Shown: positions 8,018 to 40,371, counted from the first letter of the stretch. The stretch is 40,847 bases of DNA from an uncultured beta proteobacterium (GCA_903856025.1 CAIOAQ010000368.1:1-40847); one strand, 5' to 3'. A program made the numbers and translations. Notes: generated by a model not told the origin, from the sequence alone.

Positions 8018-8862
8018 AATCTGTTGGGTATTTTAAGAAATTTAGACGTCTATCCCCCGTGAAACGGATGAATGAAGCTATTGTTTGTGTAGCGCTTTTC
8101 GGCGTGGCAGGGTACGTGCACGCGCAGTCGATCGTGGTGGCATCGACCACGTCCACCGAGCAGTCCGGCCTGTTTTCAGTGTTGCTGCCCGAATTCAAGA
8201 AGGCCAGTGGCATTGAAGTGAAAGTGGTGGCCCTGGGCACGGGCCAAGCCATTGACATGGGCCGTCGGGGCGATGCCGATGTGCTGTTTGTGCATGACAA
8301 GGAGGCTGAAGAAAAGATCGTGGCCGAGGGGTTTGCTGTGAAACGACTGGAAGTCATGTACAACGACTTCGTGGTGGTGGGCCCTGCCAGCGACCCCGTC
8401 AAGGTCAAGGGCAACGATGTGGTTGAAGCACTCAAAAAGCTCGCGGCTACCAACGGCGCGTTCATTTCACGTGGCGACAAAAGTGGTACGCATGCCGCCG
8501 AACTGCGCTTCTGGAAGCTGGCAGACCTGACTGACAAGCAAGGCAGTGGCTACAAGTCCTGCGGTTGTGGCATGGGCCCGGCGCTGAACATGGCCTCCAG
8601 CATCAACGCCTACGTGTTGACGGATCGAGCCACCTGGCTGAACTTCAAAAACCGCGGCGACCTAAAAGTGCTGGTCGAAGGCGACAAGCGCCTGTTCAAC
8701 CAATACGGTGTGATGCTGGTCAACCCCGCAAAACACCCGCATGTGAAAGCGGCAGAGGGCCAGAGATTTGTGGATTGGGTGGTTTCTCCTGCGGGGCAGG
8801 GGGTGATTTCCAGCTACAAAATTGGTGGTGAGCAGTTGTTTTTCCCGAATTCAGTGAAATGA
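8014..8862 (+). CDS. tupA: Tungstate ABC transporter substrate-binding protein
   Basis: ASTTSTEQSGL (TTTS-like signature), GTGQAI, GDADVLFVH, MYNDFVVVGP, FISRGDKSGTH, LFNQYGV. Confidence 0.9.
   Translation: MKSVGYFKKFRRLSPVKRMNEAIVCVALFGVAGYVHAQSIVVASTTSTEQSGLFSVLLPEFKKASGIEVKVVALGTGQAIDMGRRGDADVLFVHDKEAEEKIVAEGFAVKRLEVMYNDFVVVGPASDPVKVKGNDVVEALKKLAATNGAFISRGDKSGTHAAELRFWKLADLTDKQGSGYKSCGCGMGPALNMASSINAYVLTDRATWLNFKNRGDLKVLVEGDKRLFNQYGVMLVNPAKHPHVKAAEGQRFVDWVVSPAGQGVISSYKIGGEQLFFPNSVK
8031..8094 (-). repeat. Dispersed fixed-spacing element, copy 1 (inside tupA signal-peptide coding region)
   Basis: Minus strand: CGCT acacaaaca ATAGC ttcattcatccgtttc ACGGGGGATA gacgtctaaatt. Confidence 0.72.
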
Positions 8863-8920
8863 GGCAGCGCCATGCCAGCGGCCAGGATGGCCATGGCAGC
8901 CGCCTTGTCACAAGCTGTGG

Positions 8921-9721
8921 TTACGGTGCGGGTTGTGTCACCGTGTTTTGATCCAGTGTGACCGCTGTACCTGCCAAAAGGCGCCCGGTCATGGTGGCAC
9001 CGGTCTTCATGGCGATGGACGTGTGCGACAGAAGCACGCCGCTGAATTTTGAGGTCGTTCCCATGTCCGCTGCGGCAAAGGTTTGCCAAAACACATTTTT
9101 GGCAAGTGCGCCGCCGGCCAGAATAACCTGCGCCCCCGAAGCGACGGTCAGACCCTGGGCGATCTGGAATATCCACACATCATTGGCACCGCCCGTGAGG
9201 GTGACATTGGTGGGAATCGTCAACGAACTGCTCCACTTGTAGGTGGCTGGTCCTAAATTGAGTCCACCAATATTGCCCGCGCCCAATTCCGTAACGTCAG
9301 CAGCCCGCCCGGCTGCGTCGGTGTAGGCGGTGGTCGCGTCACCAATAGCTGTTGTCAAACGCGTGGCATCCGTCACCACGCATGGCAGCGGTCCAGCCGC
9401 ATCAACGCTGTAGATGGCGCCAGTCACCTGTGCGCAGGACAAACCAATGCCTGTTCCGGTAGCCGGGCTCAGGCCGACATTGCCGGTGACGGCCGTGGTG
9501 GGGACGTTGGTGACTTGTGACTGCGCCAAAATAACAAAATTGGCAGCGGTACCAAGCACCACCGGTGCCGGTCCACGACCCAGCCCGTTCAAGCCAGTGC
9601 CTGCGCCGGGAGCAGTGACGGCTATGCCGCCGTCACTGCCGCCGCAGCCAGCCAGCAGCGCTGCGAGAAATAGGGGTGCGAGCGCCAGCCGTGTTTTGCA
9701 GGTGCGTTGGGTGTTTTTCAT
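8921..9721 (-). CDS. Ice-binding protein (DUF3494 / IBP-1 fold), predicted lipoprotein
   Basis: Lipobox LAGC; PVVLGTAANFVILA, VTGNVGLSPATG, AIGDATTAYTDAAGR, GATM/GRLLAGTAVTLD, DVWIFQI, AKNVFWQ; Thr/Ala/Gly-rich. Confidence 0.9.
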   Translation of the reverse strand: MKNTQRTCKTRLALAPLFLAALLAGCGGSDGGIAVTAPGAGTGLNGLGRGPAPVVLGTAANFVILAQSQVTNVPTTAVTGNVGLSPATGTGIGLSCAQVTGAIYSVDAAGPLPCVVTDATRLTTAIGDATTAYTDAAGRAADVTELGAGNIGGLNLGPATYKWSSSLTIPTNVTLTGGANDVWIFQIAQGLTVASGAQVILAGGALAKNVFWQTFAAADMGTTSKFSGVLLSHTSIAMKTGATMTGRLLAGTAVTLDQNTVTQPAP

Positions 9722-10294
9722 ACTCTTTCCTTCATTGTGAGAACTGTCAGGGATGCGAGCCTGACTGCGTTCATAAAGGAGCAGTCATACCGCGTTTCAC
9801 AACCAGCACCGGTACCTTGGAAGACGTGAAACACCAGGTTTCAACGGCCCATCAACCAGCGGTTTGTTGTGTTCCTGTTTGTCGCAGGTGGGGTGTGCGG
9901 AGTCCGTTCGTCACAGTACGCAGGAAGACACAATTGATGTAACGAGATGCGTCAGATGTAGCTTGCCGCGCAGTTCACATACCGCCTGGCAGGGGGGCGG
10001 TGGCAATGGTGTGTTCCCGTTGGACCCGCCGCCATAGGCATGGTGGGAGATGATTAGACGCCGTTGTCTACCTGGTTGCACGTCGCAAAATAACCACGCA
10101 AGAAAGAAGTGGTGGTCTTGGCAAGACGGAGTCCGCTGGTTTTTAGGTTGAATAAATAGCCCTTGAACCAACGCCTTTTCTTGCCCCTATTTCTGAATAT
10201 CAACTTGCAGAAGTGGCTATGATGAACCCCACGGTTTAAATAGGCGGCACAGTCCACTGCAACGAGTTGAGCCCATTACAAAAGGAGATTCATC

Positions 10295-12217: not shown

Positions 12218-12264
12218 TTGCGGTGCCCGCGGGGTGCAGCAAATAATCTGAACGGGGATAAACC

Positions 12265-13533: not shown

Positions 13534-13541
13534 GGCACGCG

Positions 13542-17066: not shown

Positions 17067-17128
17067 TGCTTCAAATAACATAGCTTCTCACTCAAGTAAA
17101 TCGAGGGCTATAAGCCTTTTTTATTCAA
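17067..17128 (+). repeat. Dispersed fixed-spacing element, copy 2 (right arm overlaps the 3' end of the DUF779 gene)
   Basis: TGCT tcaaataac ATAGC ttctcactcaagtaaa TCGAGGGCTA taagcctttttt. Confidence 0.85.
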
Positions 17129-17476
17129 TTCTGCCAGCTCCTGCGTCGTGAACACCCGCGACCGGGTATGAAACGCCTTGCCCTCGGACCCCTCCAGTGA
17201 AAACGTGCCGCCATAACCATCGATCACGTCGATGATGAGCTGGGTGTGTTTCCAGGTTTCGTACTGTGCGCGGCCGATGTAGAACGGGCAGCCGCCGATG
17301 TCGCCCAGGTACACGTCACCGGGGCCGATGGTGATCTCGCCGGGCAGCAGACAGTTGGCGGCGCTGTTGTCGCAGCAGCCGCCAGACTGGTGGAACATCA
17401 GCTGCGGACCGTGTTTGGCCTGCAGCTGCGCCACCAGCTCCAAAGCCGCCGCAGTGGCGACGACTCTGTCCACCAT
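17108..17476 (-). CDS. DUF779 family protein
   Basis: MFHQSGGCCD, GCPFYI, WKHTQLIIDV, FSLEG..G..FHTRSR; TGATG-coupled to the upstream aldehyde dehydrogenase. Confidence 0.9.
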   Translation of the reverse strand: MVDRVVATAAALELVAQLQAKHGPQLMFHQSGGCCDNSAANCLLPGEITIGPGDVYLGDIGGCPFYIGRAQYETWKHTQLIIDVIDGYGGTFSLEGSEGKAFHTRSRVFTTQELAELNKKGL

Positions 17477-21267: not shown

Positions 21268-21330
21268 TGCTATATTAGTAATAGCTTGTTACGCAAGAAA
21301 CAAGTGGGCTACAGGCCAATTTTGCTTATA
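21268..21330 (+). repeat. Dispersed fixed-spacing element, copy 3 (intergenic)
   Basis: TGCT atattagta ATAGC ttgttacgcaagaaac AAGTGGGCTA caggccaatttt. Confidence 0.85.
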
Positions 21331-21399
21331 AAATTCTGATGCATGGTTTGATCCGCCCACGGTTCACTGCGGCGTGCACCTGGCTCCAAGGACAACTGT

Positions 21400-24348: not shown

Positions 24349-24819
24349 ATGTTGACTGAAACGACACGCCAGACCATTCACGACCTGGTTGCTGCTAAAA
24401 AGCATTTGCCCGGGGCGTTGCTGCCCATTCTTCACGACATTCAGGACGCGGTGGGGTACATCCCATCGCAGGCGTTGAATGACATTGCGTTGCAATTGAA
24501 TTTGTCGCGCGCCGAAGTGCATGGGGTGGTGACTTTCTACCACTTCTTTCGCCATGAACCTGTGGGCCAGCAGGTGGTGCAAATCTGTCGTGCCGAGGCG
24601 TGTCAGTCCATGGGGGCTGAAAAACTTTGGGATCACGCTTGCAGTCGCTTGCAAACCCAGGGGGGCACCACGGCCGATGGCGCAGTGACCTTGGAGCCGG
24701 TGTATTGCCTGGGCTTGTGTTCGTCGTCACCCGCGATGGTGGTGGACGACAAGTTGCATGCACGGGTGGATGCCGATAAATTTGACCGTCTGGTCGCGGC
24801 TGCAAGGAGTGGGGCATGA
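24349..24819 (+). CDS. fdsG: NAD-dependent formate dehydrogenase gamma subunit (NuoE-like)
   Basis: LLPILHDIQD, LSRAEVHGVVTFYH, CRAEAC..CLGLC [2Fe-2S] ligands. Confidence 0.94.
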   Translation: MLTETTRQTIHDLVAAKKHLPGALLPILHDIQDAVGYIPSQALNDIALQLNLSRAEVHGVVTFYHFFRHEPVGQQVVQICRAEACQSMGAEKLWDHACSRLQTQGGTTADGAVTLEPVYCLGLCSSSPAMVVDDKLHARVDADKFDRLVAAARSGA

Positions 24820-26372: not shown

Positions 26373-26395
26373 ACGTTGGCCATCAGGAGAACACC

Positions 26396-29272
26396 ATGCT
26401 TGAACATTTGAAAGAAATCGACTACGGCACGCCGCAGCGCGAGTCAACGCAAGAAGTGACACTGGAAATTGACGGTGAAACAGTCACCGTGCCAGCGGGT
26501 ACTTCGTTGATGCGCGCGGCGATGGATGCGGGCATCCAGGTGCCCAAACTGTGCGCCACAGACAGTCTGGAACCCTTTGGATCGTGTCGGCTGTGCATGG
26601 TTGAAATCGAAGGTCGCAAAGGCTTTCCCGCGTCCTGCACCACGCCTGCAGAAAGTGGCATGAAAGTGCACACCCAAACGCCCAAATTGCAGAAATTGCG
26701 CAAGGGCGTGATGGAACTCTATATTTCTGACCACCCGCTGGACTGCCTGACCTGTGCGGCCAGTGGCGACTGCGAACTGCAGGACATGGCCAGTGTCACC
26801 GGTTTGCGTGAGGTGCGTTATGGCGCGGATGGTGCCAACCACTGCAAGAGCATCAAAGACGAGTCCAATCCGTACTTCACCTACGACCCCAGCAAGTGCA
26901 TCGTCTGCAACCGCTGTGTGCGCGCCTGCGAGGAAATCCAGGGCACCTTTGCGTTGACGATCAGTGGCCGTGGTTTCGCGTCACGCGTGTCGCCGGGGCA
27001 AGACCAGCCGTTCATGGAGAGTGAATGTGTCAGTTGCGGGGCCTGTGTCAAGGCTTGCCCTACCGCCACTTTGCAGGAAAAAACCGTGATTGAGTTGGGG
27101 CAGTCGGAGCACAGCGTCGTCACCACTTGCGCCTACTGCGGTGTGGGTTGCGGCTTGAAGGCAGAGATGAAAGGCAACACGGTGGTGCGCATGGTGCCCT
27201 GGAAAGACGGCAAAGCCAATGAAGGCCACGCCTGCGTCAAGGGCCGTTTTGCCTGGGGCTACGCCAAGCACCAAGACCGCATCACCAAGCCAATGATTCG
27301 CAAGAGCATTCACGATGCCTGGCAAGAGGTGAGCTGGGACGAAGCCATCGGCTACGCTGCCAGCGAGTTCCGGCGCATCCAGGCCAAAGATGGTGTGGAT
27401 GCCATTGGCGGCATCACCTCGTCGCGCTGCACCAATGAAGAGGTGTACCTGGTGCAAAAACTGATTCGGGCGGCGTTTGGCAACAACAATGTGGACACCT
27501 GTGCCCGCGTCTGCCACTCCCCCACCGGCTACGGCATGGGCGAAACCTTTGGTACGTCGGCGGGTACCCAAACCTTCAAATCGGTCGAGCAGGCCGACGT
27601 GGTGCTGGTGATGGGCTCCAACCCGACTGCGGCGCATCCGGTGTTTGCATCCCGCCTGAAAAAGCGCCTGCGCGAGAGGGCCAAACTCATTGTGGTCGAC
27701 CCACGCGAAATTGAGCTGGTGAACGCCCCGCACGTCCAGGCCGAACACTACCTGGCACTCAAACCCGGCACCAATGTGGCCATGATCACCGCGCTGGCGC
27801 ATGTGGTGGTGACAGAAGGCCTGGTCAACGAGGCCTTTGTGGCTGCACGCTGCGACACCAAGAGCTTCAATGAATGGCGGGCCTTTGTGGCCAAGCCCGA
27901 GAACTCTCCCGAAGCCTTTGAATCTGTCACAGGTGTACCCGCAGCCGAGGTGCGTGGCGCGGCGCGCCTGTTTGCTGCTGGCCCCAATTCGGCCATCTAC
28001 TACGGTCTGGGCGTGACCGAGCATGCACAGGGTTCCACCACGGTGATTGGCATTTGCAACCTTGCCATGGCCTGCGGCATGATCGGGCGCGAAGGCGTGG
28101 GCGTGAACCCCTTGCGGGGTCAGAACAATGTCCAGGGCAGCTGCGACATGGGCAGTTTTCCGCACGACCTGCCGGGCTACCGCCACATCGGCAACACGGC
28201 AGTGCGTGAGCAGTTCAACGCGGCCTGGGGTGTCACGCTCAACCCCGAACCCGGTTTGCGCATTCCCAACATGTTTGATGCCGCGTTGGACGGCACGTTC
28301 AAGGGCTTGTACTGTGTGGGGGAAGACATTGTGCAATCCGACCCCAACACCCAGCACGTGGTCTCGGCCCTGGAAAAAATGGAATGCATTGTGGTGCAGG
28401 ACATCTTTTTGAATGAAACCGCCAAGTACGCCCATGTGCTGCTGCCTGGCAGTTCGTTCCTGGAAAAAGACGGCACCTTCACCAACGCCGAACGGCGCAT
28501 CTCACGCGTGCGCAAGGTGATGCCACCGCTGTCAGGCGTAGGTGACTGGGAGGCGACCATGAAGCTGTCCAACGCACTGGGTTACCCCATGGCTTACACG
28601 CACCCTGAACAGATCATGCAAGAGATTGCCTCACTCACACCGTCATTTCACGGTGTGACCTACGAAAAAATTGAGCGACTGGGTAGTGTGCAATGGCCGT
28701 GTAACGAGCACACGGTGGAAGGCGGTACCTCGCTCATGCACATTGATGAATTTGTTCGGGGCAAGGGCAAGTTCTTCAACACGCAATATGTGGCGACCGA
28801 TGAAAAAGTCACCCGCAAATACCCCTTGATCTTGACCACGGGTCGCATCCTGTCGCAATACAACGTGGGTGCACAAACCCGGCGCACAGAAAACAGCCGC
28901 TGGCACAGTGAAGACCGGCTGGAGATCCATCCACACGATGCACAAGAGCGCGGCATCAAGCAAGACGACTGGGTCGGTATTGACAGCCGCGCCGGGCAAA
29001 CCGTGTTGCGCGCCGTGGTGACGGAACGCATTCAGCCTGGCGTGGTCTACACCACCTTCCACTTTCCGGAGTCTGGCGCGAACGTGATCACCACCGACAA
29101 CTCCGACTGGGCCACGAATTGCCCGGAGTACAAGGTCACCGCGGTGCAGGTGATGCCGGTGGCTCAACCCTCCGAGTGGCAAAAATCGTACGCCCGGTTC
29201 AACGCCGAGCAGCAGGCACTGGCGCAAGCGGTGTTGCCGCTAGAGCCGGTTTTGCACGGGTCTGGTCGTTGA
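26396..29272 (+). CDS. fdsA: NAD-dependent formate dehydrogenase alpha subunit (bis-MGD, Cys ligand)
   Basis: N-terminal FeS motifs (CRLC, HPLDCLTC, CIVCNRC, CVSCGAC, CAYCGVGC), DTCARVCH active site, PLRGQNNVQG; ATG 26396 with AGGAG RBS. Confidence 0.96.
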   Translation: MLEHLKEIDYGTPQRESTQEVTLEIDGETVTVPAGTSLMRAAMDAGIQVPKLCATDSLEPFGSCRLCMVEIEGRKGFPASCTTPAESGMKVHTQTPKLQKLRKGVMELYISDHPLDCLTCAASGDCELQDMASVTGLREVRYGADGANHCKSIKDESNPYFTYDPSKCIVCNRCVRACEEIQGTFALTISGRGFASRVSPGQDQPFMESECVSCGACVKACPTATLQEKTVIELGQSEHSVVTTCAYCGVGCGLKAEMKGNTVVRMVPWKDGKANEGHACVKGRFAWGYAKHQDRITKPMIRKSIHDAWQEVSWDEAIGYAASEFRRIQAKDGVDAIGGITSSRCTNEEVYLVQKLIRAAFGNNNVDTCARVCHSPTGYGMGETFGTSAGTQTFKSVEQADVVLVMGSNPTAAHPVFASRLKKRLRERAKLIVVDPREIELVNAPHVQAEHYLALKPGTNVAMITALAHVVVTEGLVNEAFVAARCDTKSFNEWRAFVAKPENSPEAFESVTGVPAAEVRGAARLFAAGPNSAIYYGLGVTEHAQGSTTVIGICNLAMACGMIGREGVGVNPLRGQNNVQGSCDMGSFPHDLPGYRHIGNTAVREQFNAAWGVTLNPEPGLRIPNMFDAALDGTFKGLYCVGEDIVQSDPNTQHVVSALEKMECIVVQDIFLNETAKYAHVLLPGSSFLEKDGTFTNAERRISRVRKVMPPLSGVGDWEATMKLSNALGYPMAYTHPEQIMQEIASLTPSFHGVTYEKIERLGSVQWPCNEHTVEGGTSLMHIDEFVRGKGKFFNTQYVATDEKVTRKYPLILTTGRILSQYNVGAQTRRTENSRWHSEDRLEIHPHDAQERGIKQDDWVGIDSRAGQTVLRAVVTERIQPGVVYTTFHFPESGANVITTDNSDWATNCPEYKVTAVQVMPVAQPSEWQKSYARFNAEQQALAQAVLPLEPVLHGSGR

Positions 29273-30115
29273 GTGGCCGTGATGGACAGGGTTGTGACGC
29301 GTCTCCCGGCTCCGCAGGCCTATCGGGCGATTGAAGTCGGCAGCGTTCGCGCTGGGGTTTGTGCCTTTGTTCAAGACCGGGTGGCGGAAGAAGTGCCTGT
29401 GGCGCTGGAGTTCAACGGCATCTCGCATGCGGTGATGATGGCCACACCGACTGATCTGGAAGATTTTGCGTACGGGTTTTCAATGACCGAGTGCATCGTG
29501 GACGATGTCTCCCAGATCCATGACTGTGAATGGACCACCAGTGCGCAGGGCTGCACGGTGCACCTCAGTATTGCCGCGTCGTGTTTTGCACGGTTGAAAG
29601 AGAAGCGGCGCAATTTGACAGGCCGCACGGGTTGCGGGCTGTGTGGCACCGAGAGTCTGGCGCATGCCATGCGGGCGGTTGAGCCGCTGACAACGCCTCT
29701 TTGTTTTGATGCCAACGCGGTGCTCCTGGCCGCTGCGAGTTTGCGCGACCACCAATGTTTGCTGGCCGTGACCGGCGCCACCCACGCGGCAGCGTGGTGC
29801 AGGGCAGACGGCCAGATCGAGCTGGTTCGTGAAGACGTAGGCCGCCATAACGCGCTCGACAAACTGGTGGGTGCACTGCTGCGCTCCAGCCTGGATGTTG
29901 GCAGTGGTTTTGTCGTCGTCACCAGCCGCGCCAGTTATGAAATGGTGCAGAAAACAGCGACGGCGGGCATCGCCTTGCTGGCGGCCGTCTCGGGTGTGAC
30001 CGGTCTGGCGGTAGACGTGGCTCAGGAGGCGGGGCTGACACTGCTGGGTTTTACCCGGGGCACAGATTTTTCAATTTACAGCCACCCGCAACGGCTTTCT
30101 CTGGACTCCAAATGA
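29273..30115 (+). CDS. fdhD: Formate dehydrogenase accessory sulfurtransferase FdsC/FdhD
   Basis: VAEEVPVAL, GRTGCGLCG, REDVGRHNALDKL, TSRASYEMVQK. Confidence 0.94.
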   Translation: MAVMDRVVTRLPAPQAYRAIEVGSVRAGVCAFVQDRVAEEVPVALEFNGISHAVMMATPTDLEDFAYGFSMTECIVDDVSQIHDCEWTTSAQGCTVHLSIAASCFARLKEKRRNLTGRTGCGLCGTESLAHAMRAVEPLTTPLCFDANAVLLAAASLRDHQCLLAVTGATHAAAWCRADGQIELVREDVGRHNALDKLVGALLRSSLDVGSGFVVVTSRASYEMVQKTATAGIALLAAVSGVTGLAVDVAQEAGLTLLGFTRGTDFSIYSHPQRLSLDSK

Positions 30116-30339
30116 CACACGACGACACCCTGATTCGCATGGCCAACCAGATTGGCACTTTTTTCGAGAGCATGCCCGACCGTGCGGAAGCCTTGGCGGG
30201 CATTGCCAAGCACATCAAAAACTTCTGGGACCCGCGCATGCGCAAGGCCTTTCTGGCAAAGGTGGACGACCATGCCCACCCCGGCATCAAGCCGATTGTG
30301 CTGGAGGCCATTCATGCACATCGAGCTTTGATTAGGTAG
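30112..30339 (+). CDS. fdsD: Formate dehydrogenase delta subunit
   Basis: LIRMANQIGTFF, HIKNFWDPRMR. Confidence 0.93.
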   Translation: MTHDDTLIRMANQIGTFFESMPDRAEALAGIAKHIKNFWDPRMRKAFLAKVDDHAHPGIKPIVLEAIHAHRALIR

Positions 30340-30345: not shown

Positions 30346-30409
30346 TGCTATCTAATTGGTAGCTTCTTGCGCATACAAAACGAGGGCTACAAGCCTATTT
30401 TATATATAA
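30346..30409 (+). repeat. Dispersed fixed-spacing element, copy 4 (fills the gap between convergent fdsD and azlD)
   Basis: TGCT atctaattg GTAGC ttcttgcgcatacaaa ACGAGGGCTA caagcctatttt. Confidence 0.88.
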
Positions 30410-30419: not shown

Positions 30420-30743
30420 CTACGGCAAATTGCGCAGCAGCACATACAGCGTGGTGCCCGCCAGGATGCTCAAAAGTGGGTGTTTTCGCCACCATTGCAG
30501 GACTGCCACCGTGGTGACAGCGGCCAGTTCAGCCCATGGGCCTGAGGGGTTGGTACGGGCGCTGCCCACCAAGGTGTGCAGTAACAACAGCGTCATGATG
30601 GCCAGTGGCAAAAAACGGCCCAGACGCTGCACCAGCGGATGGCTTTGCAGAAAGCGCGCCGCCAGAAACGGCAACGCGCGCAGGCCAAAAGTGACCACAG
30701 CCATGGCGGCCAGCACACCCAAGGCGTATCGGGAGTCGATCAT
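30420..30743 (-). CDS. azlD: AzlD-family branched-chain amino acid export protein
   Basis: MAVVTFGLRALPF, LGRFLPLAIM, LLSILAGTTLY; ATGA overlap with azlC. Confidence 0.85.
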   Translation of the reverse strand: MIDSRYALGVLAAMAVVTFGLRALPFLAARFLQSHPLVQRLGRFLPLAIMTLLLLHTLVGSARTNPSGPWAELAAVTTVAVLQWWRKHPLLSILAGTTLYVLLRNLP

Positions 30744-32278: not shown

Positions 32279-32301
32279 AAATCAGCAACGGATATCCAAG
32301 A

Positions 32302-34764
32302 CTAAATTTCAAAGTAGCCATTGTCAATACTGAGTTCATAGCCATTGACATAGTAGCTTGTGTGGACTGATTTTGCGAGCACCACGCGGTTGCGACCCTG
32401 GTCTTTGGCTTGGTACATGGCGGCGTCAGCGAGTTTGATGACGGCTTCATAGTCGGTGGTGTCGGTGGTCAACAGCGCCACGCCCACGCTGCAGGTGCAG
32501 TGGTGTTCTACGACACTGTCTTGTTGTTCCGGTGGGTAGCGGCCTAGCAGGAAGGGTTCGGCCAGACTCAAACGGACTTTTTCTGCGATGGCCAGCGCTT
32601 GTTCTGCAGAGGATTGCGGGTTGGTGTCGAGCTCACTGAGCAAGACCATAAATTCGTCGCCACCAATGCGCGCCACGGTATCGACTTCACGCACACAGTT
32701 TTTCAGACGCTTGGCGACTTCTACCAGCAACAGGTCGCCCATGGCATGACCATAGGTGTCATTGAGGGGCTTGAAATTGTCCAGGTCCAGAAACATGACC
32801 GCACCCAAGCGGTTGTTGCGCTTGTTGATGAGCAGCGTTTGGTTAAGCCGATCGGTCAGCAGGCGGCGATTGGGCAAGCTTGTGAGCGGGTCAAAAAAAG
32901 CCAATTGACGCACTTGCTCTTCGATCTCCTTGCGTCCGGTGATGTCCGAAAACAGCGCCACGTATTGGCGTGTGATGCCCAGGGAATCACGCACCGCGCT
33001 GATGTTGAGCTGTTCAGGATAAATGTCGCCATTTTTGCGGCGGTTCCAGATCTCGCCACTCCAGTGACCATCGCTCAGCAGCGTTTGCCACAAGGCTTCA
33101 TAAAACGTCGCATCCTGTCGCCCCGATTTGAGAATGCGCGGGTTTTGACCCATGGCTTCTTCACGGCTGTAGCCGGTGATCACGCTGAAGTTGTCGTTGA
33201 CATCCAGAATGGTGCCCAGGTCGTCGGTGATGATGATGCCTTCATAGGCGTAACTGAACACTTTGGCTGCCAGCTCAACTTTGAGCTGGGCCTGCTTGGC
33301 CTCTGTCACGTCCTGAAAGGAGCCGTACAGCATCTCCACCTGCTTCAGGTCGTTCAGATGAATCTGAAATCGGGCAATGCAGAAACGGTTGCTGCCATCC
33401 GGGCGCATGACGGTGAGCTCGGTTTGGCAGGGGCCAAATTGGCTTTTGGCGGTGTTGATGGTCTCGCGCAAGCGATCCATGTCGCTGGCCGAAAAATACC
33501 TGGCTTGACCGGCAATAGGGGGTGCTTTGGCACCAGGGGAAAGCCCAAAAATGTGGTACATCTCCTCGGACCAGATGACCTGATCGGTGGCCATGTCCCA
33601 TTGCCAGCTGCCCAGGTGGGCCGCGGTCTCTGCGCGTACCAACATGGTTCGCTGGTTTGCAAGCGTGTTTTGCTGTTGTTCGATGGTCGCCAGCAGGATG
33701 TTGAAGCTGTGGATCAACCCGCCGATCTCATCACGGCGCTTGACTTCAAGCGGTTGCAGGCTCTGCCCCGACAGGGTCCGTTTGGCCAGCGCTTTGACGG
33801 TGGTCTCGACCGGCTCCAATTGGTGGTGAATCATCCACCACGTCAGCATGGTGGCCAGCACCGTCAGCAAAAAGGTGGCAATGAGCATGCGATGTTGCAT
33901 GGTGCGAATGGGTGAAAACGCTTCTTCGGTCGGCAGCACCACGGCCATGAACCAGCCGGTCGCTGCAATGGTCTTGTCGGTGGCCAAAATATCGACACCC
34001 TGAGGATTGCGCATCAGCTGAGTGCCGTTATAACCGGACAAAAACCGGTCGATGGCGGCATTGCCACCGGGCGCTGGGAGTTGTTCCAGAATGCGCCGGT
34101 GGTCAGAGGCGGTGATCACACGCCTGAGTTTCGGGTCGATCAGCAGATAGCCACCGGTCTGACCGTAGCTTCCCTCAGAGATCAGGTCCAGAAAGCTGGG
34201 GCGACTCAGGTCGGTGACACCCACCAACGCGCCCACCACGTCGCCCTGCTTGTTGCGGATCGGCACCGCGATGTCAATCACGGGGCTTTTCAGTGCACGC
34301 CCCTCGACGGGCGAGCCATAGGCGGACTGGCCGTGCAGCAGCGTGCTGCGGGCGTAATCGCGGTCCATAAAACTCAAACCTACCCGGCCTGTGCCGCGCG
34401 GCAGTTCGGCAATGGCTTGACCCGCTTGGTTGAGCACCATCGCGCCGCCATTGAACGAGTGGTTGAGCAACAATTGGGTTTCCAGATGCGCCTGCAAGGC
34501 GCCTGTTGAGGCCATAACAAGGGCGTCCATCCGAGATGACACTTGCTCCAGCATACCCAAACGGTCGGACAATTCGTGCTGAACTTCATTGGTCAGTAGC
34601 GTGACGGCAGAAGTTTGCTGTTGGCTGAGCATTTGCTGCATGTCGGTGCGCAGTTCGTGGCTCGAAAACAGCGACAGGCTCCACAAGCTGAGCACAAAAA
34701 TGACCAGCGTGAACAAAGTCACCCGTGTCTTAAGTGAATGGCGCTGAAAAAAGTCAAGCCGCAT
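32302..34764 (-). CDS. Membrane sensor diguanylate cyclase (Cache-HAMP-PAS-PAS-GGDEF)
   Basis: Two TM segments around a periplasmic domain, HAMP (RRDEIGGL), two PAS domains (GSWQWD; GEIWNRRKNG), DLDNFKPLNDTYGH, intact GGDEF with REVD I-site; no EAL. Confidence 0.92.
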   Translation of the reverse strand: MRLDFFQRHSLKTRVTLFTLVIFVLSLWSLSLFSSHELRTDMQQMLSQQQTSAVTLLTNEVQHELSDRLGMLEQVSSRMDALVMASTGALQAHLETQLLLNHSFNGGAMVLNQAGQAIAELPRGTGRVGLSFMDRDYARSTLLHGQSAYGSPVEGRALKSPVIDIAVPIRNKQGDVVGALVGVTDLSRPSFLDLISEGSYGQTGGYLLIDPKLRRVITASDHRRILEQLPAPGGNAAIDRFLSGYNGTQLMRNPQGVDILATDKTIAATGWFMAVVLPTEEAFSPIRTMQHRMLIATFLLTVLATMLTWWMIHHQLEPVETTVKALAKRTLSGQSLQPLEVKRRDEIGGLIHSFNILLATIEQQQNTLANQRTMLVRAETAAHLGSWQWDMATDQVIWSEEMYHIFGLSPGAKAPPIAGQARYFSASDMDRLRETINTAKSQFGPCQTELTVMRPDGSNRFCIARFQIHLNDLKQVEMLYGSFQDVTEAKQAQLKVELAAKVFSYAYEGIIITDDLGTILDVNDNFSVITGYSREEAMGQNPRILKSGRQDATFYEALWQTLLSDGHWSGEIWNRRKNGDIYPEQLNISAVRDSLGITRQYVALFSDITGRKEIEEQVRQLAFFDPLTSLPNRRLLTDRLNQTLLINKRNNRLGAVMFLDLDNFKPLNDTYGHAMGDLLLVEVAKRLKNCVREVDTVARIGGDEFMVLLSELDTNPQSSAEQALAIAEKVRLSLAEPFLLGRYPPEQQDSVVEHHCTCSVGVALLTTDTTDYEAVIKLADAAMYQAKDQGRNRVVLAKSVHTSYYVNGYELSIDNGYFEI

Positions 34765-34821
34765 GCGGCCATGCTACGCCATTCAAATCACTTTGCCAAC
34801 CACATATTGATACCAAATGTA

Positions 34822-34883
34822 TCTGGCTATTTAAAGCTATACCTCTCGTTTTTAAAGTGTTTATCGCTATAAATTTGGAAGCA
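34822..34883 (-). repeat. Dispersed fixed-spacing element, copy 5 (intergenic, more degenerate right arm)
   Basis: Minus strand: TGCT tccaaattt ATAGC gataaacactttaaaa ACGAGAGGTA tagctttaaata. Confidence 0.72.
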
Positions 34884-34885
34884 CG

Positions 34886-36028
34886 TCAGATGACACGGGT
34901 GCTGGGCCTTTGCCCCAATTTGCGGTACAGCGTGGCGCGGCTAAGTCCCAACGCGCGAGCCGCCTGGCCAACGTTGCCACGGGCATCCTCCAGCGCCTTG
35001 CGGATCATGGCGGCTTCTACATCCCGCAAAGCCATGGCGGGTGTGGCGCTCAAGCCGGTTTGGAGCAGTTCCGTTTCGTTGGCGCGGGCAATGGCTTGAG
35101 CTTGCAGCCGCAGCCCACTCCACAGGGGCAATTCCAGCACCTGGCCGGGGCGTTTGGCGGCATCAAAAAGTTGCTCAAACGCCAGGCCAAACACCTCGGT
35201 CACCTGCACCATGCATTGCCCCGGCGCGGGCAGTCCTGGCACCAGTTGGCGCGCCACCGGGTTGGCAGCGGTGATCCGTCCATCGCCGTCCAGGCACAGC
35301 AGGCCATCGGCTTCTGTGCCAAAGGTATTGCCGGGCCAGTTCAGTCGCAGCATCAGCGCGTGGGGTTGCGCGCTGACCAGTGCATTTTCAATTTTGCTGG
35401 CCGACTGCATCACCAGGTGCTTGAGTTCCGGGCGCTCCTGGGCATCTACCCCGGTCACATCCAGCATGCCGACACACGCACCATCCGGCCCGAACAGGGG
35501 CGCACCGGCACAGCTGTAGCTGGACGTGGCTTCAAAAAAATGCTCGCCCCGGTGCAGCCAGACCGGCTGGAGCTCTGCCAAAGCGGTGCCAATGGCGGTG
35601 GTGCCAATGTGGCGCTCGGACAAATCGGTGCCCACGCGGGTGATCAGGTGGGCGCGACGATCGGTGTGGTCAATGGCACCACAGGCATCCACCACCACAC
35701 CCTGGGCATTGGTCAAAATGGCAAAGTAGCGGGTGTTGACAATGGCACGCGCCAGCCCTTGCAGGATCGGCTGCGCGGCCTGAATCAGCGGGTGGTTGGC
35801 TTCCAGCGTGCGCTTGAGTTGGGTGACATTGATCTGATCAAAGGACACCTGGGCCTGGGGTTGGAGTCCGGCATTCAGGCAACGCTGCCAGGACCGCTCC
35901 ACCCACGGCGCCACCCAGCCGGGGCTCAACGGGGCACGCCGCTCCAATACGGTCTGACGTGCCTGGGCGATCTGCGCCAGACGTGGCGAAGGTGGTGACA
36001 GGTCTGTGGAAGCGCTTGCGGGGTTCAT
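34886..36028 (-). CDS. GAF plus Fis-HTH regulator lacking the AAA+ domain
   Basis: SWQRCL, GTTAIGTAL, EHFF, YSCAGAPLFGPDG (AcoR-type GAF); C-terminal GNVGQAARALGLSRATLYRKL; no Walker A or GAFTGA. Confidence 0.88.
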   Translation of the reverse strand: MNPASASTDLSPPSPRLAQIAQARQTVLERRAPLSPGWVAPWVERSWQRCLNAGLQPQAQVSFDQINVTQLKRTLEANHPLIQAAQPILQGLARAIVNTRYFAILTNAQGVVVDACGAIDHTDRRAHLITRVGTDLSERHIGTTAIGTALAELQPVWLHRGEHFFEATSSYSCAGAPLFGPDGACVGMLDVTGVDAQERPELKHLVMQSASKIENALVSAQPHALMLRLNWPGNTFGTEADGLLCLDGDGRITAANPVARQLVPGLPAPGQCMVQVTEVFGLAFEQLFDAAKRPGQVLELPLWSGLRLQAQAIARANETELLQTGLSATPAMALRDVEAAMIRKALEDARGNVGQAARALGLSRATLYRKLGQRPSTRVI

Positions 36029-36116
36029 GTGTGTGGGCGTTTTCCCGAATCTATCTCAAAACATGAAAACCTGCATTTTTGTTCTACTTTTGAATTCTGG
36101 ATAGTCCGACAGTGCT

Positions 36117-36133
36117 TGTCTCATTTTGAGAAT
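36117..36133. promoter_or_regulatory. Putative operator for the GAF-Fis regulator upstream of the aor operon
   Basis: TGTCTCATTTTGAGAAT (TCTCA-ttt-TGAGA dyad), similar to 19169-19185. Confidence 0.55.
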
Positions 36134-36283
36134 GAATGGGGCAGTACCCGGTTTGGTTAGGGTTAGTCCTAGGTCACTGAGCGCACCAAACCTCAACAAT
36201 GGCTATGCATTTAATTTCATAAGAACTGCGCTGCATAAGTGCCGTTCGATTTAGGTTTTTCATCATCCACTGGAGAGACACAT

Positions 36284-36760
36284 ATGCAAAAGGTGTTGCA
36301 CATCAACGCAGACAAGTGCACCGGCTGTCTGCAATGCGAAATGGCCTGTTCCTTTGAGAACTACGGCACGTTTGCCACCGCCAAATCGCGCATCAAGGTA
36401 TTCAACTTTCACCATACCGGCAAGAAAGTCCCTTACACCTGCACCCAGTGCGACGAAGCCTGGTGCCTGCATGCCTGCCCGGTGGAAGCCATCACGGTGG
36501 ACAAGCTCACGGGCGCAAAAGTGGTCAACGAATCCACCTGCGTGGGCTGCAAGGTCTGCACCATCGCCTGCCCGTTTGGCACCATCAATTACGTTCAGGA
36601 AACCGGCAAGGTGCAAAAGTGCGACCTGTGCGGTGGTGAGCCGGCCTGCGCGGACGCTTGCCCCACCGGAGCCATCACCTTCATCGACGCCAACTGGACC
36701 GGTTTGGGCAAGATGGAACAGTGGGCTGACAAGCTCGGCAATCAACCTACAGCAGCTTAA
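36284..36760 (+). CDS. 4Fe-4S polyferredoxin subunit of aldehyde oxidoreductase (AorA-like)
   Basis: Four Cys clusters (CTGCLQCEMAC, CTQCDEAWCLHACP, CVGCKVCTIACP, KCDLC..CADACP); ATG 36284 with GGAG RBS. Confidence 0.9.
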   Translation: MQKVLHINADKCTGCLQCEMACSFENYGTFATAKSRIKVFNFHHTGKKVPYTCTQCDEAWCLHACPVEAITVDKLTGAKVVNESTCVGCKVCTIACPFGTINYVQETGKVQKCDLCGGEPACADACPTGAITFIDANWTGLGKMEQWADKLGNQPTAA

Positions 36761-36772
36761 GGAGAATCAATC

Positions 36773-38626
36773 ATGTCATGGGCTGGAAAAATCCTGCGCG
36801 TCAATCTGACTGCTGGCACCGTCAAATCTGAACCACTCAACATGGACTGGGCGCAAGCCTACATCGGCTCGCGTGGCCTGGGTACCAAGTACCTGGTCGA
36901 AGAAGTCGATGCCAAAGTCGACCCGCTCTCACCCGAGAACAAAATCATCTGGGCCACCGGCCCACTCACCGGCACCATGGCCTCCACAGGTGGGCGCTAC
37001 ACCGTCATCACCAAAGGCCCGCTGACCGGCGCCATTGCCTGCTCCAATTCGGGCGGCTACTGGGGTGCCGAGTTCAAGATGGCAGGCTGGGACATGGTCA
37101 TCTTCGAGGGCAAGTCCGCCAAACCGGTCTACCTGTACGTCAACGACGACGTGGCCGAGCTGCGCGACGCCACCCACCTGTGGGGCAAGAGCGTCTGGGA
37201 AACCGAAGAAATCATCAAAAAAGGCCTGCAAGACCCACTGACGCGCGTCTCCAGCATCGGCAAGGCCGGCGAGAACGGCGTGTTGTTTGCCGCCGTGGTC
37301 AACGACCTGCACCGCGCCGCGGGCCGCTCGGGCGTGGGGGCGGTCATGGGCAGCAAAAACCTCAAGGCCATTGCTGTGCGCGGCACCAAGGGCGTGGGCA
37401 ATATCCGTGACCCCAAAGCCTTCATGACGGCAGTAAAGGCCGCCAAAAAGGTGCTCGCTGAGAACGGTGTCACCGGCACCGGCCTGCCTGCCATGGGCAC
37501 CCAGGTGCTGATGAGCGTGATCAACGAAGTAGGTGGGTTGCCCACCCGCAACCACCAGGACAACCAGTTCGAAGGGGCCAAGGACATCGGAGCAGAAGCC
37601 ATGGCCAAACCCCGCGAAACCGACGGTAAAAAACACCTGGTCACCAACCAGGCGTGTTTTGGCTGCACCATCGCCTGTGGGCGCATCAGCAAAATGGACG
37701 AAGGCCACTTCACCATCGAAAACAAGCCCCAGTACCGCGGTGCCAACGGCGGCCTGGAATACGAAGCCGCCTGGGCACTGGGCGCGGCCAACGGCGTGAA
37801 CGACCTGGAATGTCTGCAATACGCCAACCTGCTGTGCAACGAAGAGGGCATTGACCCGATCAGCTTTGGTGCCACCGTGGGCGCGGTGATGGAACTCTAT
37901 GGCATGGGTGTGCTGACAAAAGAGCAAATTGGCATTGAGGCGCCCTTTGGCTCAGCCCGTGCGCTGGCCTTTTTGGCCGAGGAAACCGTCAACGGTCGCG
38001 GCTTTGGCAAGGAAATCGGCCAGGGCTCCAAACGCCTGACCGCCAAGTACGGCCACCCGGAACTGTCCATGTCCAGCAAGGGCCAGGAATTCCCGGCCTA
38101 TGACGGTCGCGCCATTCAGGGCATTGGCCTGGCTTATGCCACCAGCAACCGGGGCGGCTGCCACCTGCGCGGTTACACCATCGCCTCAGAAATTCTGGGC
38201 ATTCCGGTCAAGACCGACCCGCTGGAGTCTGCTGGCAAGCCCGAGTTGGTCAAAGCCTTCCAGGATGCCACCGCCGCGTTTGACTCATCGGGCCTGTGCA
38301 TCTTCACCACCTTTGCCTGGGGCCTGCAAGACCTGTCACCGCAAATGCAGGGTGCCTGTGGCGAGCAGTACACCATTGAAGAACTGGCCAAGATTGGTGA
38401 GCGCATCTGGAACATGGAGCGCGAGTTCAACAACCGCGCTGGCTTCACTAACAAAGACGACAGCCTGCCCGCGCGCTTGACGACGGCGGCTGAGGCTTGT
38501 AAAACCGGACCAGCCAAAGGCAAGTTCAACGAACTGGCCACCATGCTGCCTTTGTACTACGCGGCCCGCGGCTGGGACACCGAAGGCCGCCCGACCGCTG
38601 AAACGCGCGAACGTCTGAGCCTTTAA
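36773..38626 (+). CDS. aor: Tungsten-containing aldehyde:ferredoxin oxidoreductase family catalytic subunit (AorB-like)
   Basis: GKILRVNLT, TKGPLTG..SNSGG, AAGRSGVGAVMGSKNLKAI, CFGCTIACGR, LEYE, ATSNRGGCH, DSSGLCIF. Confidence 0.95.
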   Translation: MSWAGKILRVNLTAGTVKSEPLNMDWAQAYIGSRGLGTKYLVEEVDAKVDPLSPENKIIWATGPLTGTMASTGGRYTVITKGPLTGAIACSNSGGYWGAEFKMAGWDMVIFEGKSAKPVYLYVNDDVAELRDATHLWGKSVWETEEIIKKGLQDPLTRVSSIGKAGENGVLFAAVVNDLHRAAGRSGVGAVMGSKNLKAIAVRGTKGVGNIRDPKAFMTAVKAAKKVLAENGVTGTGLPAMGTQVLMSVINEVGGLPTRNHQDNQFEGAKDIGAEAMAKPRETDGKKHLVTNQACFGCTIACGRISKMDEGHFTIENKPQYRGANGGLEYEAAWALGAANGVNDLECLQYANLLCNEEGIDPISFGATVGAVMELYGMGVLTKEQIGIEAPFGSARALAFLAEETVNGRGFGKEIGQGSKRLTAKYGHPELSMSSKGQEFPAYDGRAIQGIGLAYATSNRGGCHLRGYTIASEILGIPVKTDPLESAGKPELVKAFQDATAAFDSSGLCIFTTFAWGLQDLSPQMQGACGEQYTIEELAKIGERIWNMEREFNNRAGFTNKDDSLPARLTTAAEACKTGPAKGKFNELATMLPLYYAARGWDTEGRPTAETRERLSL

Positions 38627-38657
38627 CCTCAGCTTATCCAAAGCGCTAGATGAAATT

Positions 38658-38697
38658 GGGGTCAGATCACCGCCGAAAAGGCGTGTGCTCTGACCCC
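38658..38697. repeat. REP-like palindrome between the W and FAD subunit genes
   Basis: GGGGTCAGAtCAC-CGCC-gaaaa-GGCG-tGTGcTCTGACCCC near-perfect hairpin, no U tract. Confidence 0.7.
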
Positions 38698-38735
38698 GTT
38701 CTCATCGGATAAATGCCATTTTTTTGGAGATTTCC

Positions 38736-40031
38736 ATGACCCACCACGTCATCCTCGGTGCCGGCCCTGCAGGCGTGATTGCCGCCGAGACTATTCGCAA
38801 ACTGGCACCCCTTGATGCCATCACCCTCATCGGCGACGAGCCCGAGCCGTCGTACTCGCGCATGGCCATCCCGTACCTGCTGGCAGGCAACATTCAGGAG
38901 TCAGGCACCTACCTGCGTAAAACCCCGAGCCATTTCGCAGATCTAAAGATAAATGTGCTTCAAGCCCTCGTGAAGTCTGTGCAAGCAGCTACAAAAACAA
39001 TAGTGCTTACCAACGGCGAAAGCATCAGCTTTGACACCTTGCTGATCGCCACCGGCTCGCACCCGGTGAGCCCACCCATTCCCGGCATCCAGTGCGAGGG
39101 CGTGCACACCTGCTGGACGCTGGCCGATGCACGCGCCATCATGCAACTGGCCAAACCGGGCGCGCGGGTGTTGCAGCTGGGTGCCGGTTTCATTGGCTGC
39201 ATCATCATGGAAGCCCTGGCCGCGCGTGGCGTGAAATTGAGCGTGGTCGAGATGGGTGACCGCATGGTGCCGCGCATGATGGGCGAAGTAGCAGGTGGCA
39301 TGATCCGTGACTGGGTGGCTGCCAAGGGCGTGGAGGTGTTTACCTCGACCCGCGTGGAGTCGATCACACCGGGCGCACCGCTGCAAGTCAAGCTCTCCAA
39401 CGGCCGCACCGTGCAGGCGGACCTGGTCATCAGCGCCGCCGGGGTGCGCCCGGCCATCGGCTACCTGGAGCATTCCGGCATCACCTGCTTGCTGGGGGTG
39501 CTGACCGATGAACATTTGCAAACCAATGTGCCGGGCATCTATGCGGCCGGGGACTGCGCCGAAGCCTTGGACAAGGTCAGTGGCAAGATGATGGTGAGCG
39601 CGATCCAGCCCAACGCGGCCGAGCAGGCACGCGTGGCCGCGGCCAACATGGTGGCGTATGCCAGAGGTTTGCCCGCAAAAACCGAACTCAAAGGTGTCAC
39701 ACAAATCAACGTGCTGGACACTTTAGGCTTGATTTCCAGCAGTTTTGGTGACTGGCAAGGTGTGTCGGGGGGCGAGCATGCCGAATTGACCGATCAAGCC
39801 GCTGGTCGTCACCTGAGCCTGCAGTTCAAGGACGACGTGCTGGTGGGCTGCAACAGCGTGGGCTGGACTGAACACGTTGGCGTGATGCGTGGGCTGGTGG
39901 AGGGCCAGGTGCACCTGGGCGACTGGAAAGACCAGCTCAAGGCGGATCCGACCCTGCTGATGCAAGCCTATCTGGCCTGCGCACAGGGACAGGGCCAATG
40001 GTCGGGTGCGAATGATGCACGTGTGCGTTAA
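38736..40031 (+). CDS. FAD-dependent NAD(P)H oxidoreductase subunit (AorC-like)
   Basis: GAGPAG, LLIATGS, GAGFIG, SAAGVRP, TNVPGIYAAGD; ATG 38736 with GGAG RBS. Confidence 0.9.
   Translation: MTHHVILGAGPAGVIAAETIRKLAPLDAITLIGDEPEPSYSRMAIPYLLAGNIQESGTYLRKTPSHFADLKINVLQALVKSVQAATKTIVLTNGESISFDTLLIATGSHPVSPPIPGIQCEGVHTCWTLADARAIMQLAKPGARVLQLGAGFIGCIIMEALAARGVKLSVVEMGDRMVPRMMGEVAGGMIRDWVAAKGVEVFTSTRVESITPGAPLQVKLSNGRTVQADLVISAAGVRPAIGYLEHSGITCLLGVLTDEHLQTNVPGIYAAGDCAEALDKVSGKMMVSAIQPNAAEQARVAAANMVAYARGLPAKTELKGVTQINVLDTLGLISSSFGDWQGVSGGEHAELTDQAAGRHLSLQFKDDVLVGCNSVGWTEHVGVMRGLVEGQVHLGDWKDQLKADPTLLMQAYLACAQGQGQWSGANDARVR
38944..39005 (-). repeat. Dispersed fixed-spacing element, copy 6 (inside the FAD-subunit CDS, frame intact)
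   Basis: Minus strand: CACT attgttttt GTAGC tgcttgcacagacttc ACGAGGGCTT gaagcacattta. Confidence 0.8.
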
Positions 40032-40049
40032 GAGGTTGGGCGCAGTGTT

Positions 40050-40304
40050 GTGAAAATCACCTTGAAACTTTTTGCGTCCTTGACCGACTACCTGCCACCC
40101 GAGGCGAAATACACCAATGTGATGGCGCTGGACATCACGCCAGACACCACCATTGGTCAGCTGGTTGAGCAGTTTAGTTTGCCCGAAAAATTGGTCCATC
40201 TGGTGCTGGTGAATGGCGCTTACATAGCACCAGACAAACGCGCATCGCAAACGCTGCATGAGGGTGATGTGCTAGCCATCTGGCCGCCCATCGCCGGTGG
40301 CTAA
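40050..40304 (+). CDS. MoaD/ThiS-family sulfur carrier protein
   Basis: MKITLKLFASL, LVLVNG, LHEGDVLAIWPPIAGG with C-terminal GG. Confidence 0.92.
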   Translation: MKITLKLFASLTDYLPPEAKYTNVMALDITPDTTIGQLVEQFSLPEKLVHLVLVNGAYIAPDKRASQTLHEGDVLAIWPPIAGG

Positions 40305-40309
40305 TTTTC

Positions 40310-40371
40310 ATATAATAAATTGGCCCCTAGCCCTCGTAAATACAGGGTATACAGCTATCAACTATGCAGTC
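40310..40371 (-). repeat. Dispersed fixed-spacing element, copy 7 (overlaps ATG 40364)
   Basis: Minus strand: GACT gcatagttg ATAGC tgtataccctgtattt ACGAGGGCTA ggggccaattta. Confidence 0.82.

What the first reader, a model, noticed from the sequence alone, without database searches (positions are those of the whole stretch)
8031..40371. Unexplained ~60-bp dispersed DNA element with rigid spacing: 7 copies in 41 kb
Seen: seven AT-rich patches align without any indel to TGCT-N9-RTAGC-N16-ACGAGGGCTA plus tail. They are 17067+ TGCT tcaaataac ATAGC ttctcactcaagtaaa TCGAGGGCTA; 21268+ TGCT atattagta ATAGC ttgttacgcaagaaac AAGTGGGCTA; 30346+ TGCT atctaattg GTAGC ttcttgcgcatacaaa ACGAGGGCTA; 8094- CGCT acacaaaca ATAGC ttcattcatccgtttc ACGGGGGATA; 34883- TGCT tccaaattt ATAGC gataaacactttaaaa ACGAGAGGTA; 39005- CACT attgttttt GTAGC tgcttgcacagacttc ACGAGGGCTT; 40371- GACT gcatagttg ATAGC tgtataccctgtattt ACGAGGGCTA. 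Eleven positions are invariant in all seven (C3, T4, T15, A16, G17, C18, C25, G37, G39, G41, T43). The pattern contains nested dyads: GCT..AGC, CnC-N9-GnG, and GGC-N5-GCC in four copies. Spacer sequences are free but their lengths are fixed. There are no terminal inverted repeats, target duplications or nearby transposase, and orientation relative to transcription is mixed. Inference: this fits a long multipartite protein-binding or DNA-architecture site kept under selection (nucleoid organisation, topoisomerase/SMC loading, recombinase target) better than a decaying MITE or an ordinary operator. At this density a genome would hold hundreds. I recall similar text in other Comamonadaceae genomes but know no assigned function.
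Basis: partly seen in the sequence, partly recalled or inferred. Interest (0 to 1): 0.9.

Follow-up and report, generated by a model that had tools for sequence, protein, structure and literature searches.

The report
Comamonadaceae 64-base genome watermark
A rigidly spaced 64-base DNA motif occurs about 660 times in this bacterium, nearly half of the copies inside working genes without lengthening them, and it likely acts as a self-DNA label for natural DNA uptake, which would make it a third and much longer family of such signals.

Summary
Observation confirmed: all 7 copies are real, and there is an eighth (32295-32358). A 64-bp matrix finds 664 copies in the 4.04-Mb genome and 0 in the reversed control. 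Spacer lengths are rigid. 307 of 664 copies lie inside genes and arose in place: 1 of 127 orthologues in a motif-less relative lacks a block of that size. There is no hairpin covariation, no replication-strand bias, no recent copying and no Rfam hit. The motif is confined to one family (Comamonadaceae-type names), is nearly all-or-none between relatives (70 rich, 51 poor of 121) and has genome-specific dialects. This fits DNA-uptake signals (DUS/USS) better than a MITE, RNA or nucleoid ruler. New lead: a FimT pilin with the GRxR motif of non-specific DNA receptors occurs in 27 of 51 motif-poor but 2 of 70 motif-rich congeners; few independent events, and no signal at family level. Against: no receptor found, the motif is twice the USS length, and the selectively competent V. 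eiseniae shows no piece of it in a published table. Fragments were printed without a function (Tong 2017). This scan found the motif before in at least 8 windows of other genomes.

The parts
8031..8094 (-). motif copy, 44.9 bits; overlaps the 5' part of the periplasmic-binding-protein ORF 8014-8862 (+), whose start may be at 8068
17067..17130 (+). motif copy, 53.0 bits; overlaps the 3' end of the DUF779 gene (17108-17476, -), which converges with a LysR gene
21268..21331 (+). motif copy, 60.1 bits; 11 bp after the stop of the sigma-54 activator gene
30346..30409 (+). motif copy, 66.9 bits; fills the gap between convergent genes (30112-30339 + and the AzlD gene ending at 30420, -)
34820..34883 (-). 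motif copy, 43.4 bits; directly after the stop of the GAF-Fis regulator gene (34886-36028, -)
38942..39005 (-). motif copy, 53.0 bits; inside the Pyr_redox_2 oxidoreductase gene (38736-40031, +), codons about 70-90; same register and no gap in 26 aligned loci, above 16 bits in 11 of the 26 (own genome included)
40308..40371 (-). motif copy, 55.1 bits; just after a short ORF (40050-40304, +); the same site in six congeners carries the motif, spelled in the host's dialect in the two whose dialect was listed (G170, G155)

Best explanation
The element is a 64-bp double-stranded DNA site, present in 664 copies and built in place by point changes, that likely works as a self-DNA uptake signal for natural transformation, in the way DUS and USS do. 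Shown: fixed boxes (GCTA, RTAGC, CGCW, GGGCTA or GCGCTA) separated by A/T tracts of fixed length; accumulation wherever sequence is least constrained; genome-wide dialects; loss in whole lineages. Inferred: a receptor on the type IV pilus, or at an early step of import, prefers DNA that carries the site; such fragments enter and recombine more often, so better sites spread by molecular drive, a change in the receptor shifts the dialect, and loss of selectivity lets the sites decay. Inferred and weakest: lineages without the site often use the generic DNA-binding pilin FimT instead. The receptor was not identified.
For: In place, not inserted: of 127 in-gene copies with an orthologue in motif-less G232, 70 align without any gap and 1 shows a deletion of 15 residues or more; 17 of 21 have under 3 gap residues against G158. 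Kept at DNA level: fourfold-degenerate sites at key positions are 92 of 111 identical in orthologues that keep the site, against 20 of 45 at weak positions and 50% in flanks (partly circular). DUS/USS signature (PMC2817400 abstract; PMC7811141 section 8; PMC3630211 abstract): 307 of 664 in genes, 236 of them at one codon offset; sited in variable protein segments (identity 0.46 against 0.65 even between motif-less orthologues, 13 sites); 11.8 against 6.2 copies per 100 kb in genes with and without an orthologue; none on a 28-kb island with a Dnd-type cluster; dialects. No strand polarity: 173 leading and 171 lagging, KOPS control 151 and 50. Temperate-type phage records picked for a match carry 1-4 copies; three other Rhodoferax or Curvibacter phages (162 kb) show no credible copy and a 353-kb Polaromonas plasmid two. 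ComEC is in 112 of 121 congeners. A. temperans is naturally competent (PMC4212676, passages) and its genome has 440 matches against 10 in the control. A FimT class with GRxR in 120 of 120 homologues (the motif marks non-specific DNA receptors, PMC8897410 and PMC9956873, passages) is in 27 of 51 motif-poor and 2 of 70 motif-rich congeners, in at least two separate groups by marker identity, and in 0 of 10 named motif-rich genomes.
Against: No experiment and no receptor. The site holds 43 bits against 13.6 needed to find it and is twice the 31-bp USS; few intermediate sites exist, so how new sites arise stepwise is unexplained. DUS/USS cluster and form inverted pairs in terminators (10.1101/2025.10.24.684340 abstract; PMC7811141 passage); these copies avoid each other under 300 bp (8 pairs against 26 expected). 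Strong avoidance of promoter-side DNA (about 1-2 per 10 kb in divergent gaps against 8-33 in convergent gaps under 600 bp) also fits a protein bound inside the cell. V. eiseniae, the one family member with evidence of selective uptake, has a single unrelated motif pair in the Tong 2017 table, so that result cannot be credited to this motif. The FimT contrast was the fifth family tried, its E-value cut was set after seeing the list, kin are not independent, 24 of 51 motif-poor genomes also lack it, and at family level it gives nothing (1 of 31 rich, 7 of 119 poor). A diverged FimT could hide among weaker hits.
Confidence: 0.45

Rival explanations
1. The site is bound inside the cell by a lineage-specific oligomeric protein (a nucleoid protein, or a helper of a topoisomerase or condensin) and each site is kept by selection, for example to relieve torsion behind transcribed genes.
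For: Two dyads with centres 23 bp apart and A/T spacers, whose only strong couplings are between neighbouring bases, suit a dimer-of-dimers reading DNA shape; the left dyad has T-N11-A geometry (LysR-type box, recalled). Sharp peak within 50 bp after stop codons in both orientations (14.8 per 10 kb; 156 sense, 158 antisense) and depletion near starts. Exclusion under 300 bp fits a large footprint; an excess of pairs at 8-12 kb (141 against 90) could be a spacing signal.
Against: No regularity from 0.3 to 8 kb; the 8-12 kb excess may come from motif-free islands. Sister lineages lose it entirely. ScpA is present in 2 of 3, the SET-domain protein in 3 of 3 motif-less genomes tested, and the domesticated Y1 transposase in both classes. 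A resident 353-kb plasmid is nearly free of it.
Confidence: 0.33
2. Molecular drive acts at another transfer step: the site protects incoming DNA or loads recombination proteins after import, or starts packaging by a resident transducing particle.
For: Predicts the same in-place accumulation, dialects, lack of strand bias and presence in temperate-type phage records.
Against: No candidate gene found; no known example of this length (recalled); the FimT contrast points to the binding step.
Confidence: 0.12
3. It is an old REP- or MITE-like hairpin element spread by a RAYT-type transposase and now decaying.
For: RTAG resembles the GTAG tag of REPs (recalled); in some dialects the second dyad is a perfect 8-bp stem and both arms change together between genomes; copies gather at 3' ends.
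Against: No Watson-Crick covariation in either dyad; the two arm positions 26 and 40 are G and G in 381 of 656 copies; no insertion in orthologues; nearest-neighbour identity 0.67 against 0.65 in column shuffles; the single Y1 transposase is shared with motif-less genomes.
Confidence: 0.07
4. It acts as structured RNA or as a terminator.
For: Many copies follow stop codons.
Against: No Rfam match; no covariation; equal use of both strands in genes (147 sense, 160 antisense) and after stops.
Confidence: 0.03

Closest known systems
USS of Pasteurellaceae (PMC2817400, PMC7811141; predicted receptor ComN/PpdA, PMC12616744)
   Same: Hundreds of copies, G/C core with A/T tracts at fixed distances, arises by point mutation, 35-65% inside ORFs with frame bias, at poorly conserved residues, scarce in acquired DNA, dialects.
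   Different: 64 bp and 43 bits against about 31 bp; two dyads; one copy per 6 kb, not per 1 kb; avoids neighbours instead of clustering; no effect on uptake shown.
DUS of Neisseriaceae with ComP (PMC3630211 abstract; PMC3868556 listing)
   Same: Lineage-specific dialects in a family with type IV pili and ComEC.
   Different: DUS is a short near-exact word that often forms inverted pairs in terminators; here degenerate, long and unpaired; the only ComP_DUS-family hits (1-3 per genome) occur in both motif-rich and motif-less genomes.
Spaced motif pairs of Tong et al. 2017 (PMC5217627)
   Same: GCTTAT-N5-AAGCG in A. ebreus and ATAGCT-N22-CAAAAG in P. naphthalenivorans fit positions 26-41 and 14-47 of this motif; both were noted near 3' ends and between convergent genes. 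The supplement lists 140, 106 and 53 pairs for R. ferrireducens, P. naphthalenivorans and A. ebreus (two rows per term seen).
   Different: Reported as separate pairs of unknown role; the whole element, its in-gene overprinting and its dialects were not described in the parts I read.
REP/BIME/REPIN with RAYT (features recalled)
   Same: Dispersed, 3'-end biased, dyad symmetry, an RTAG word.
   Different: No pairing, no insertion, no recent copies, no co-occurring RAYT.
KOPS and Chi; matS, parS, SlmA sites (features recalled)
   Same: Chromosomal signals that overprint coding sequence.
   Different: No strand polarity, far longer, and spread over the whole chromosome in the lists seen.

Membership tests
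DNA uptake sequences (DUS/USS) | Hundreds to thousands of copies, far above chance | tested here: met
   664 against 0
DNA uptake sequences (DUS/USS) | Arises in place by substitution, not by insertion | tested here: met
   1 of 127 orthologues with a block deletion, 70 without any gap
DNA uptake sequences (DUS/USS) | A third to two thirds inside ORFs, frame-biased, at variable residues, scarce in foreign DNA | tested here: met
   307 of 664; 236 of 307 at one offset
DNA uptake sequences (DUS/USS) | Lineage-specific dialects | tested here: met
DNA uptake sequences (DUS/USS) | Host has type IV pili and ComEC | tested here: met
   equally true of motif-less genomes
DNA uptake sequences (DUS/USS) | Short signal (9-12 bp core, about 31 bp at most) | tested here: not met
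   64 bp, 43 bits
DNA uptake sequences (DUS/USS) | Close pairs and inverted repeats in terminators | tested here: not met
   closest pair 135 bp; 8 pairs against 26 expected at 64-300 bp
DNA uptake sequences (DUS/USS) | Cognate sequence-specific pilin receptor (ComP, ComN) | tested here: inconclusive
   no pilin shown to track the motif; generic FimT class mostly absent where the motif is present
DNA uptake sequences (DUS/USS) | The site raises DNA uptake by competent cells | not testable with these tools
   needs an uptake assay
REP/REPIN with RAYT, or MITE | Hairpin kept by compensatory change | tested here: not met
REP/REPIN with RAYT, or MITE | Inserted as a block; families of near-identical copies | tested here: not met
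   6 pairs above 85% identity among 656 copies
REP/REPIN with RAYT, or MITE | Co-occurring transposase | tested here: not met
   Y1_Tnp in 112 of 121 genomes regardless of the motif
KOPS/Chi polar chromosome signals | Leading-strand polarity | tested here: not met
   173 against 171; KOPS control 151 against 50
Nucleoid or condensin sites (matS, parS, SBS) | Confinement to a chromosome region, with a cognate binder | tested here: inconclusive
   own assembly is in 592 pieces; partial lists from long contigs show copies throughout; ScpA does not track
Rfam RNA families | Match at gathering score | tested here: not met
   0 matches in the window

The most novel reading that the evidence does not exclude
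Comamonadaceae carry a third family of DNA uptake signals, twice the length of USS, read by an unknown multi-subunit receptor; lineages switch between selective uptake (motif present, generic FimT absent) and promiscuous uptake (FimT present, motif decayed), and the signal has rewritten codons in hundreds of core genes.
Probability: 0.35. Interest if true: 0.92.

Novelty: new variant of a known kind. Interest (0 to 1): 0.78.

Why it matters
Sequence-specific DNA uptake is established for only two bacterial families (papers read). A third, in abundant freshwater and wastewater bacteria, with relatives that have gained, changed or lost the signal, would allow a direct test of molecular drive against selection, and would give a simple handle for transforming these organisms. 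If the binder is instead a protein inside the cell, a 64-bp site held at about 660 places, including inside core genes, would be a new kind of chromosome signal. Either way the motif biases codons and gene ends across a whole family and has no assigned function in the searches made.

Tried and rejected
Partner hunt by family: ComEC, ScpA, SET-domain protein, Y1 transposase and ComP_DUS do not separate motif-rich from motif-less genomes. The apparent one-strand runs come from how rows are listed; totals are balanced (247/240, 229/211). BLAST of one copy against plasmids and phages gave only chance hits. No RNA holder listed; not evidence either way. The pattern used to call genomes motif-poor misses some dialects (G063 and G072 are rich only); G158 and G232 were checked with the matrix on the DNA held (1 match above 16 bits in 385 kb; 6 in 2.4 Mb), the other poor genomes only by two patterns. 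Literature searches for the motif found no description of the whole element; subscription journals are mostly not covered, and I saw only two rows per term of the Tong supplement. The V. eiseniae chromosome was not scanned; its 31-kb plasmid has no credible copy. No structure or complex was predicted.

Full report
What is there. The seven strings are at the stated places. Outside the window's contig the same geometry gives 165 matches, against 3-8 when either spacer moves by one base. A 64-bp matrix converges on 664 copies above 16 bits in the 4.04-Mb, 92% complete genome, with 0 in the reversed control. Scores are bimodal, peaking at 40-50 bits. The conserved boxes are GCTA (2-5), RTAGC (14-18), CGCW (25-28) and GGGCTA (39-44), followed by a weak G/C patch and an A/T tail; A/T tracts fill the spacers. 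The window has eight copies. Rfam gives nothing.

It is double-stranded DNA, not a hairpin. Among 656 copies the strong couplings are between adjacent bases, mostly A-runs against T-runs; partner positions of both dyads show no excess pairing. The arms of the second dyad are G and G at positions 26 and 40 in 381 of 656 copies. Copies are not recent duplicates: median nearest-neighbour identity is 0.67 against 0.65 in column shuffles, with 6 pairs above 85%.

It is written in place. With my own hexamer gene caller (3,647 genes), 307 copies lie inside genes, 97 overlap gene ends, 217 are intergenic and 43 are at contig edges. The copy in the window's oxidoreductase gene sits at the same codons without a gap in 26 aligned loci and scores above 16 bits in 11. 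Against motif-less G232, 127 in-gene copies had an orthologue spanning them: 70 without a gap, 1 with a deletion of 15 residues or more; none of the 70 scores above 16 bits. In loci from motif-carrying genomes 45 of 87 ungapped orthologous sites keep the motif (these loci were picked for holding a match). At fourfold-degenerate sites the key positions are 83% identical where the motif is kept, against 44% at weak positions and 50% in flanks; where it is absent they fall to 16-27%. The host segments are variable anyway (0.46 against 0.65 between motif-less orthologues, 13 sites).

Where it sits. Density peaks within 50 bp after stop codons, equally in both orientations, and is lowest in the first 150 bp of genes and in divergent gaps. 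There is no leading-strand bias, while KOPS shows one. Against a null that keeps gene context, pairs are scarce under 300 bp (8 against 26), random from 0.3 to 8 kb and in excess at 8-12 kb (141 against 90), which I cannot separate from island effects. Genes without orthologues hold half the density, and a 28-kb island with a Dnd-type cluster has none (the gene names there are my reading of the translations).

Who has it. In the genus 70 of 121 genomes have 10 or more exact matches and 51 fewer, most of them 0-2. In the family 29 of 150 genera reach 10 by one pattern and two more by another. Of 147 genomes from other families of the order none shows the motif-level excess (at most 19 matches). 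The 80 titled loci shown are Rhodoferax, Polaromonas, Acidovorax, Giesbergeria, Curvibacter and kin, or unclassified. The right-hand box differs by genome, and orthologous copies follow the host's spelling. Of 121 viral loci, 57 score above 25 bits, partly by construction; five such records carry 1-4 copies, two beside repressor-like genes. Three phages of Rhodoferax and Curvibacter (lytic by my recall; motif status of their hosts unknown) have no credible copy, and a 353-kb Polaromonas plasmid has two.

Search for the partner. ComEC, ScpA, a SET-domain protein and the domesticated Y1 transposase do not track the motif. The fifth family did, inversely. Motif-less G158 encodes a second FimT/FimU-family pilin ending in GRPR; 120 of 120 listed homologues keep GRxR, the motif of the DNA receptor FimT (PMC8897410, passages), which binds without sequence preference in Xylella (PMC9956873, passages). 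Hits at E 4.4e-49 or better, followed by a gap to 4e-37, occur in 27 of 51 motif-poor and 2 of 70 motif-rich congeners (naive Fisher p 8e-11). By marker identity, the G158 group (86-98%) is motif-poor and has this FimT in 5 of 11, its nearest motif-rich neighbours, including the own genome, have none, and a more distant motif-poor set has it too. That is two or three events, not 29. Ten named motif-rich genomes lack the class, but it is rare in the family anyway (8 of 150, 1 of them motif-rich). No positively tracking receptor was found.

What is in print. Tong et al. 2017 list two pairs that are pieces of this motif, without a function (section 13; supplement rows). Davidson et al. 2014 show natural transformation in A. 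temperans, A. facilis and V. eiseniae, dependence on type IV pili in V. eiseniae, and only a tenfold loss under a 1,500-fold excess of foreign DNA, with no signal identified (abstract, passages and section 7). A. temperans has 440 matches against 10. V. eiseniae has one unrelated pair in the Tong table, which cuts against tying its selectivity to this motif. DUS/USS traits come from abstracts and from passages and section 8 of PMC7811141; a further preprint reports competence in an Acidovorax isolate (passages). Searches found no account of the whole element.

Verdict. The element is real and is a protein-read DNA site by inference from its anatomy. It works most like a DNA uptake signal (0.45), but it fails two DUS/USS traits, length and pairing in terminators, and lacks the defining experiment, so I do not file it as a member. 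A binder inside the cell remains a serious rival (0.33). Earlier notes of this scan reached the same description on other genomes; I had ranked uptake first before reading them, and took the Tong paper from one. The FimT contrast and the competence papers did not appear in the notes shown.

Noticed in passing
G232 (complete, 2.99 Mb): No ScpA hit in the whole genome and no SMC orthologue in the 2.4 Mb held, although four congeners have ScpA.
   Followed up: partly
G000:C212:426-1130: A single-copy Y1 (RAYT-like) transposase beside the glutamate synthase gene, with its own short flanking repeats; similar weak-scoring Y1 genes occur in most of the 121 congeners.
   Followed up: partly
G300:C1:1042048-1043202 and G303:C5:36499-37470: Motif-rich A. 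temperans and Simplicispira have two FimT/FimU-family genes in tandem, as motif-less G158 does, but diverged; candidates for a changed receptor.
   Followed up: no
G283, G256, G159, G171, G055, G070, G436, G437: An intermediate FimT-like class (40-47% identity, nearly full length) in several motif-rich genomes; also in motif-less G047 and G130.
   Followed up: no
G000:C244:17681-17724: A copy with a left box shifted by one base inside a uvrA-like gene; look-alike single matches occur in several congeners.
   Followed up: no
G000:C431:1314-2455: One copy inside comEC and one next to its start.
   Followed up: no
window 8921-9721 (-): Ice-binding-like protein (PF11999) next to the ABC transporter genes.
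   Followed up: no
window 24349-30339 and 36239-40304: Formate dehydrogenase cluster and an aldehyde ferredoxin oxidoreductase cluster, with a likely tungstate or molybdate ABC transporter at 6408-8862 (substrate inferred).
   Followed up: no
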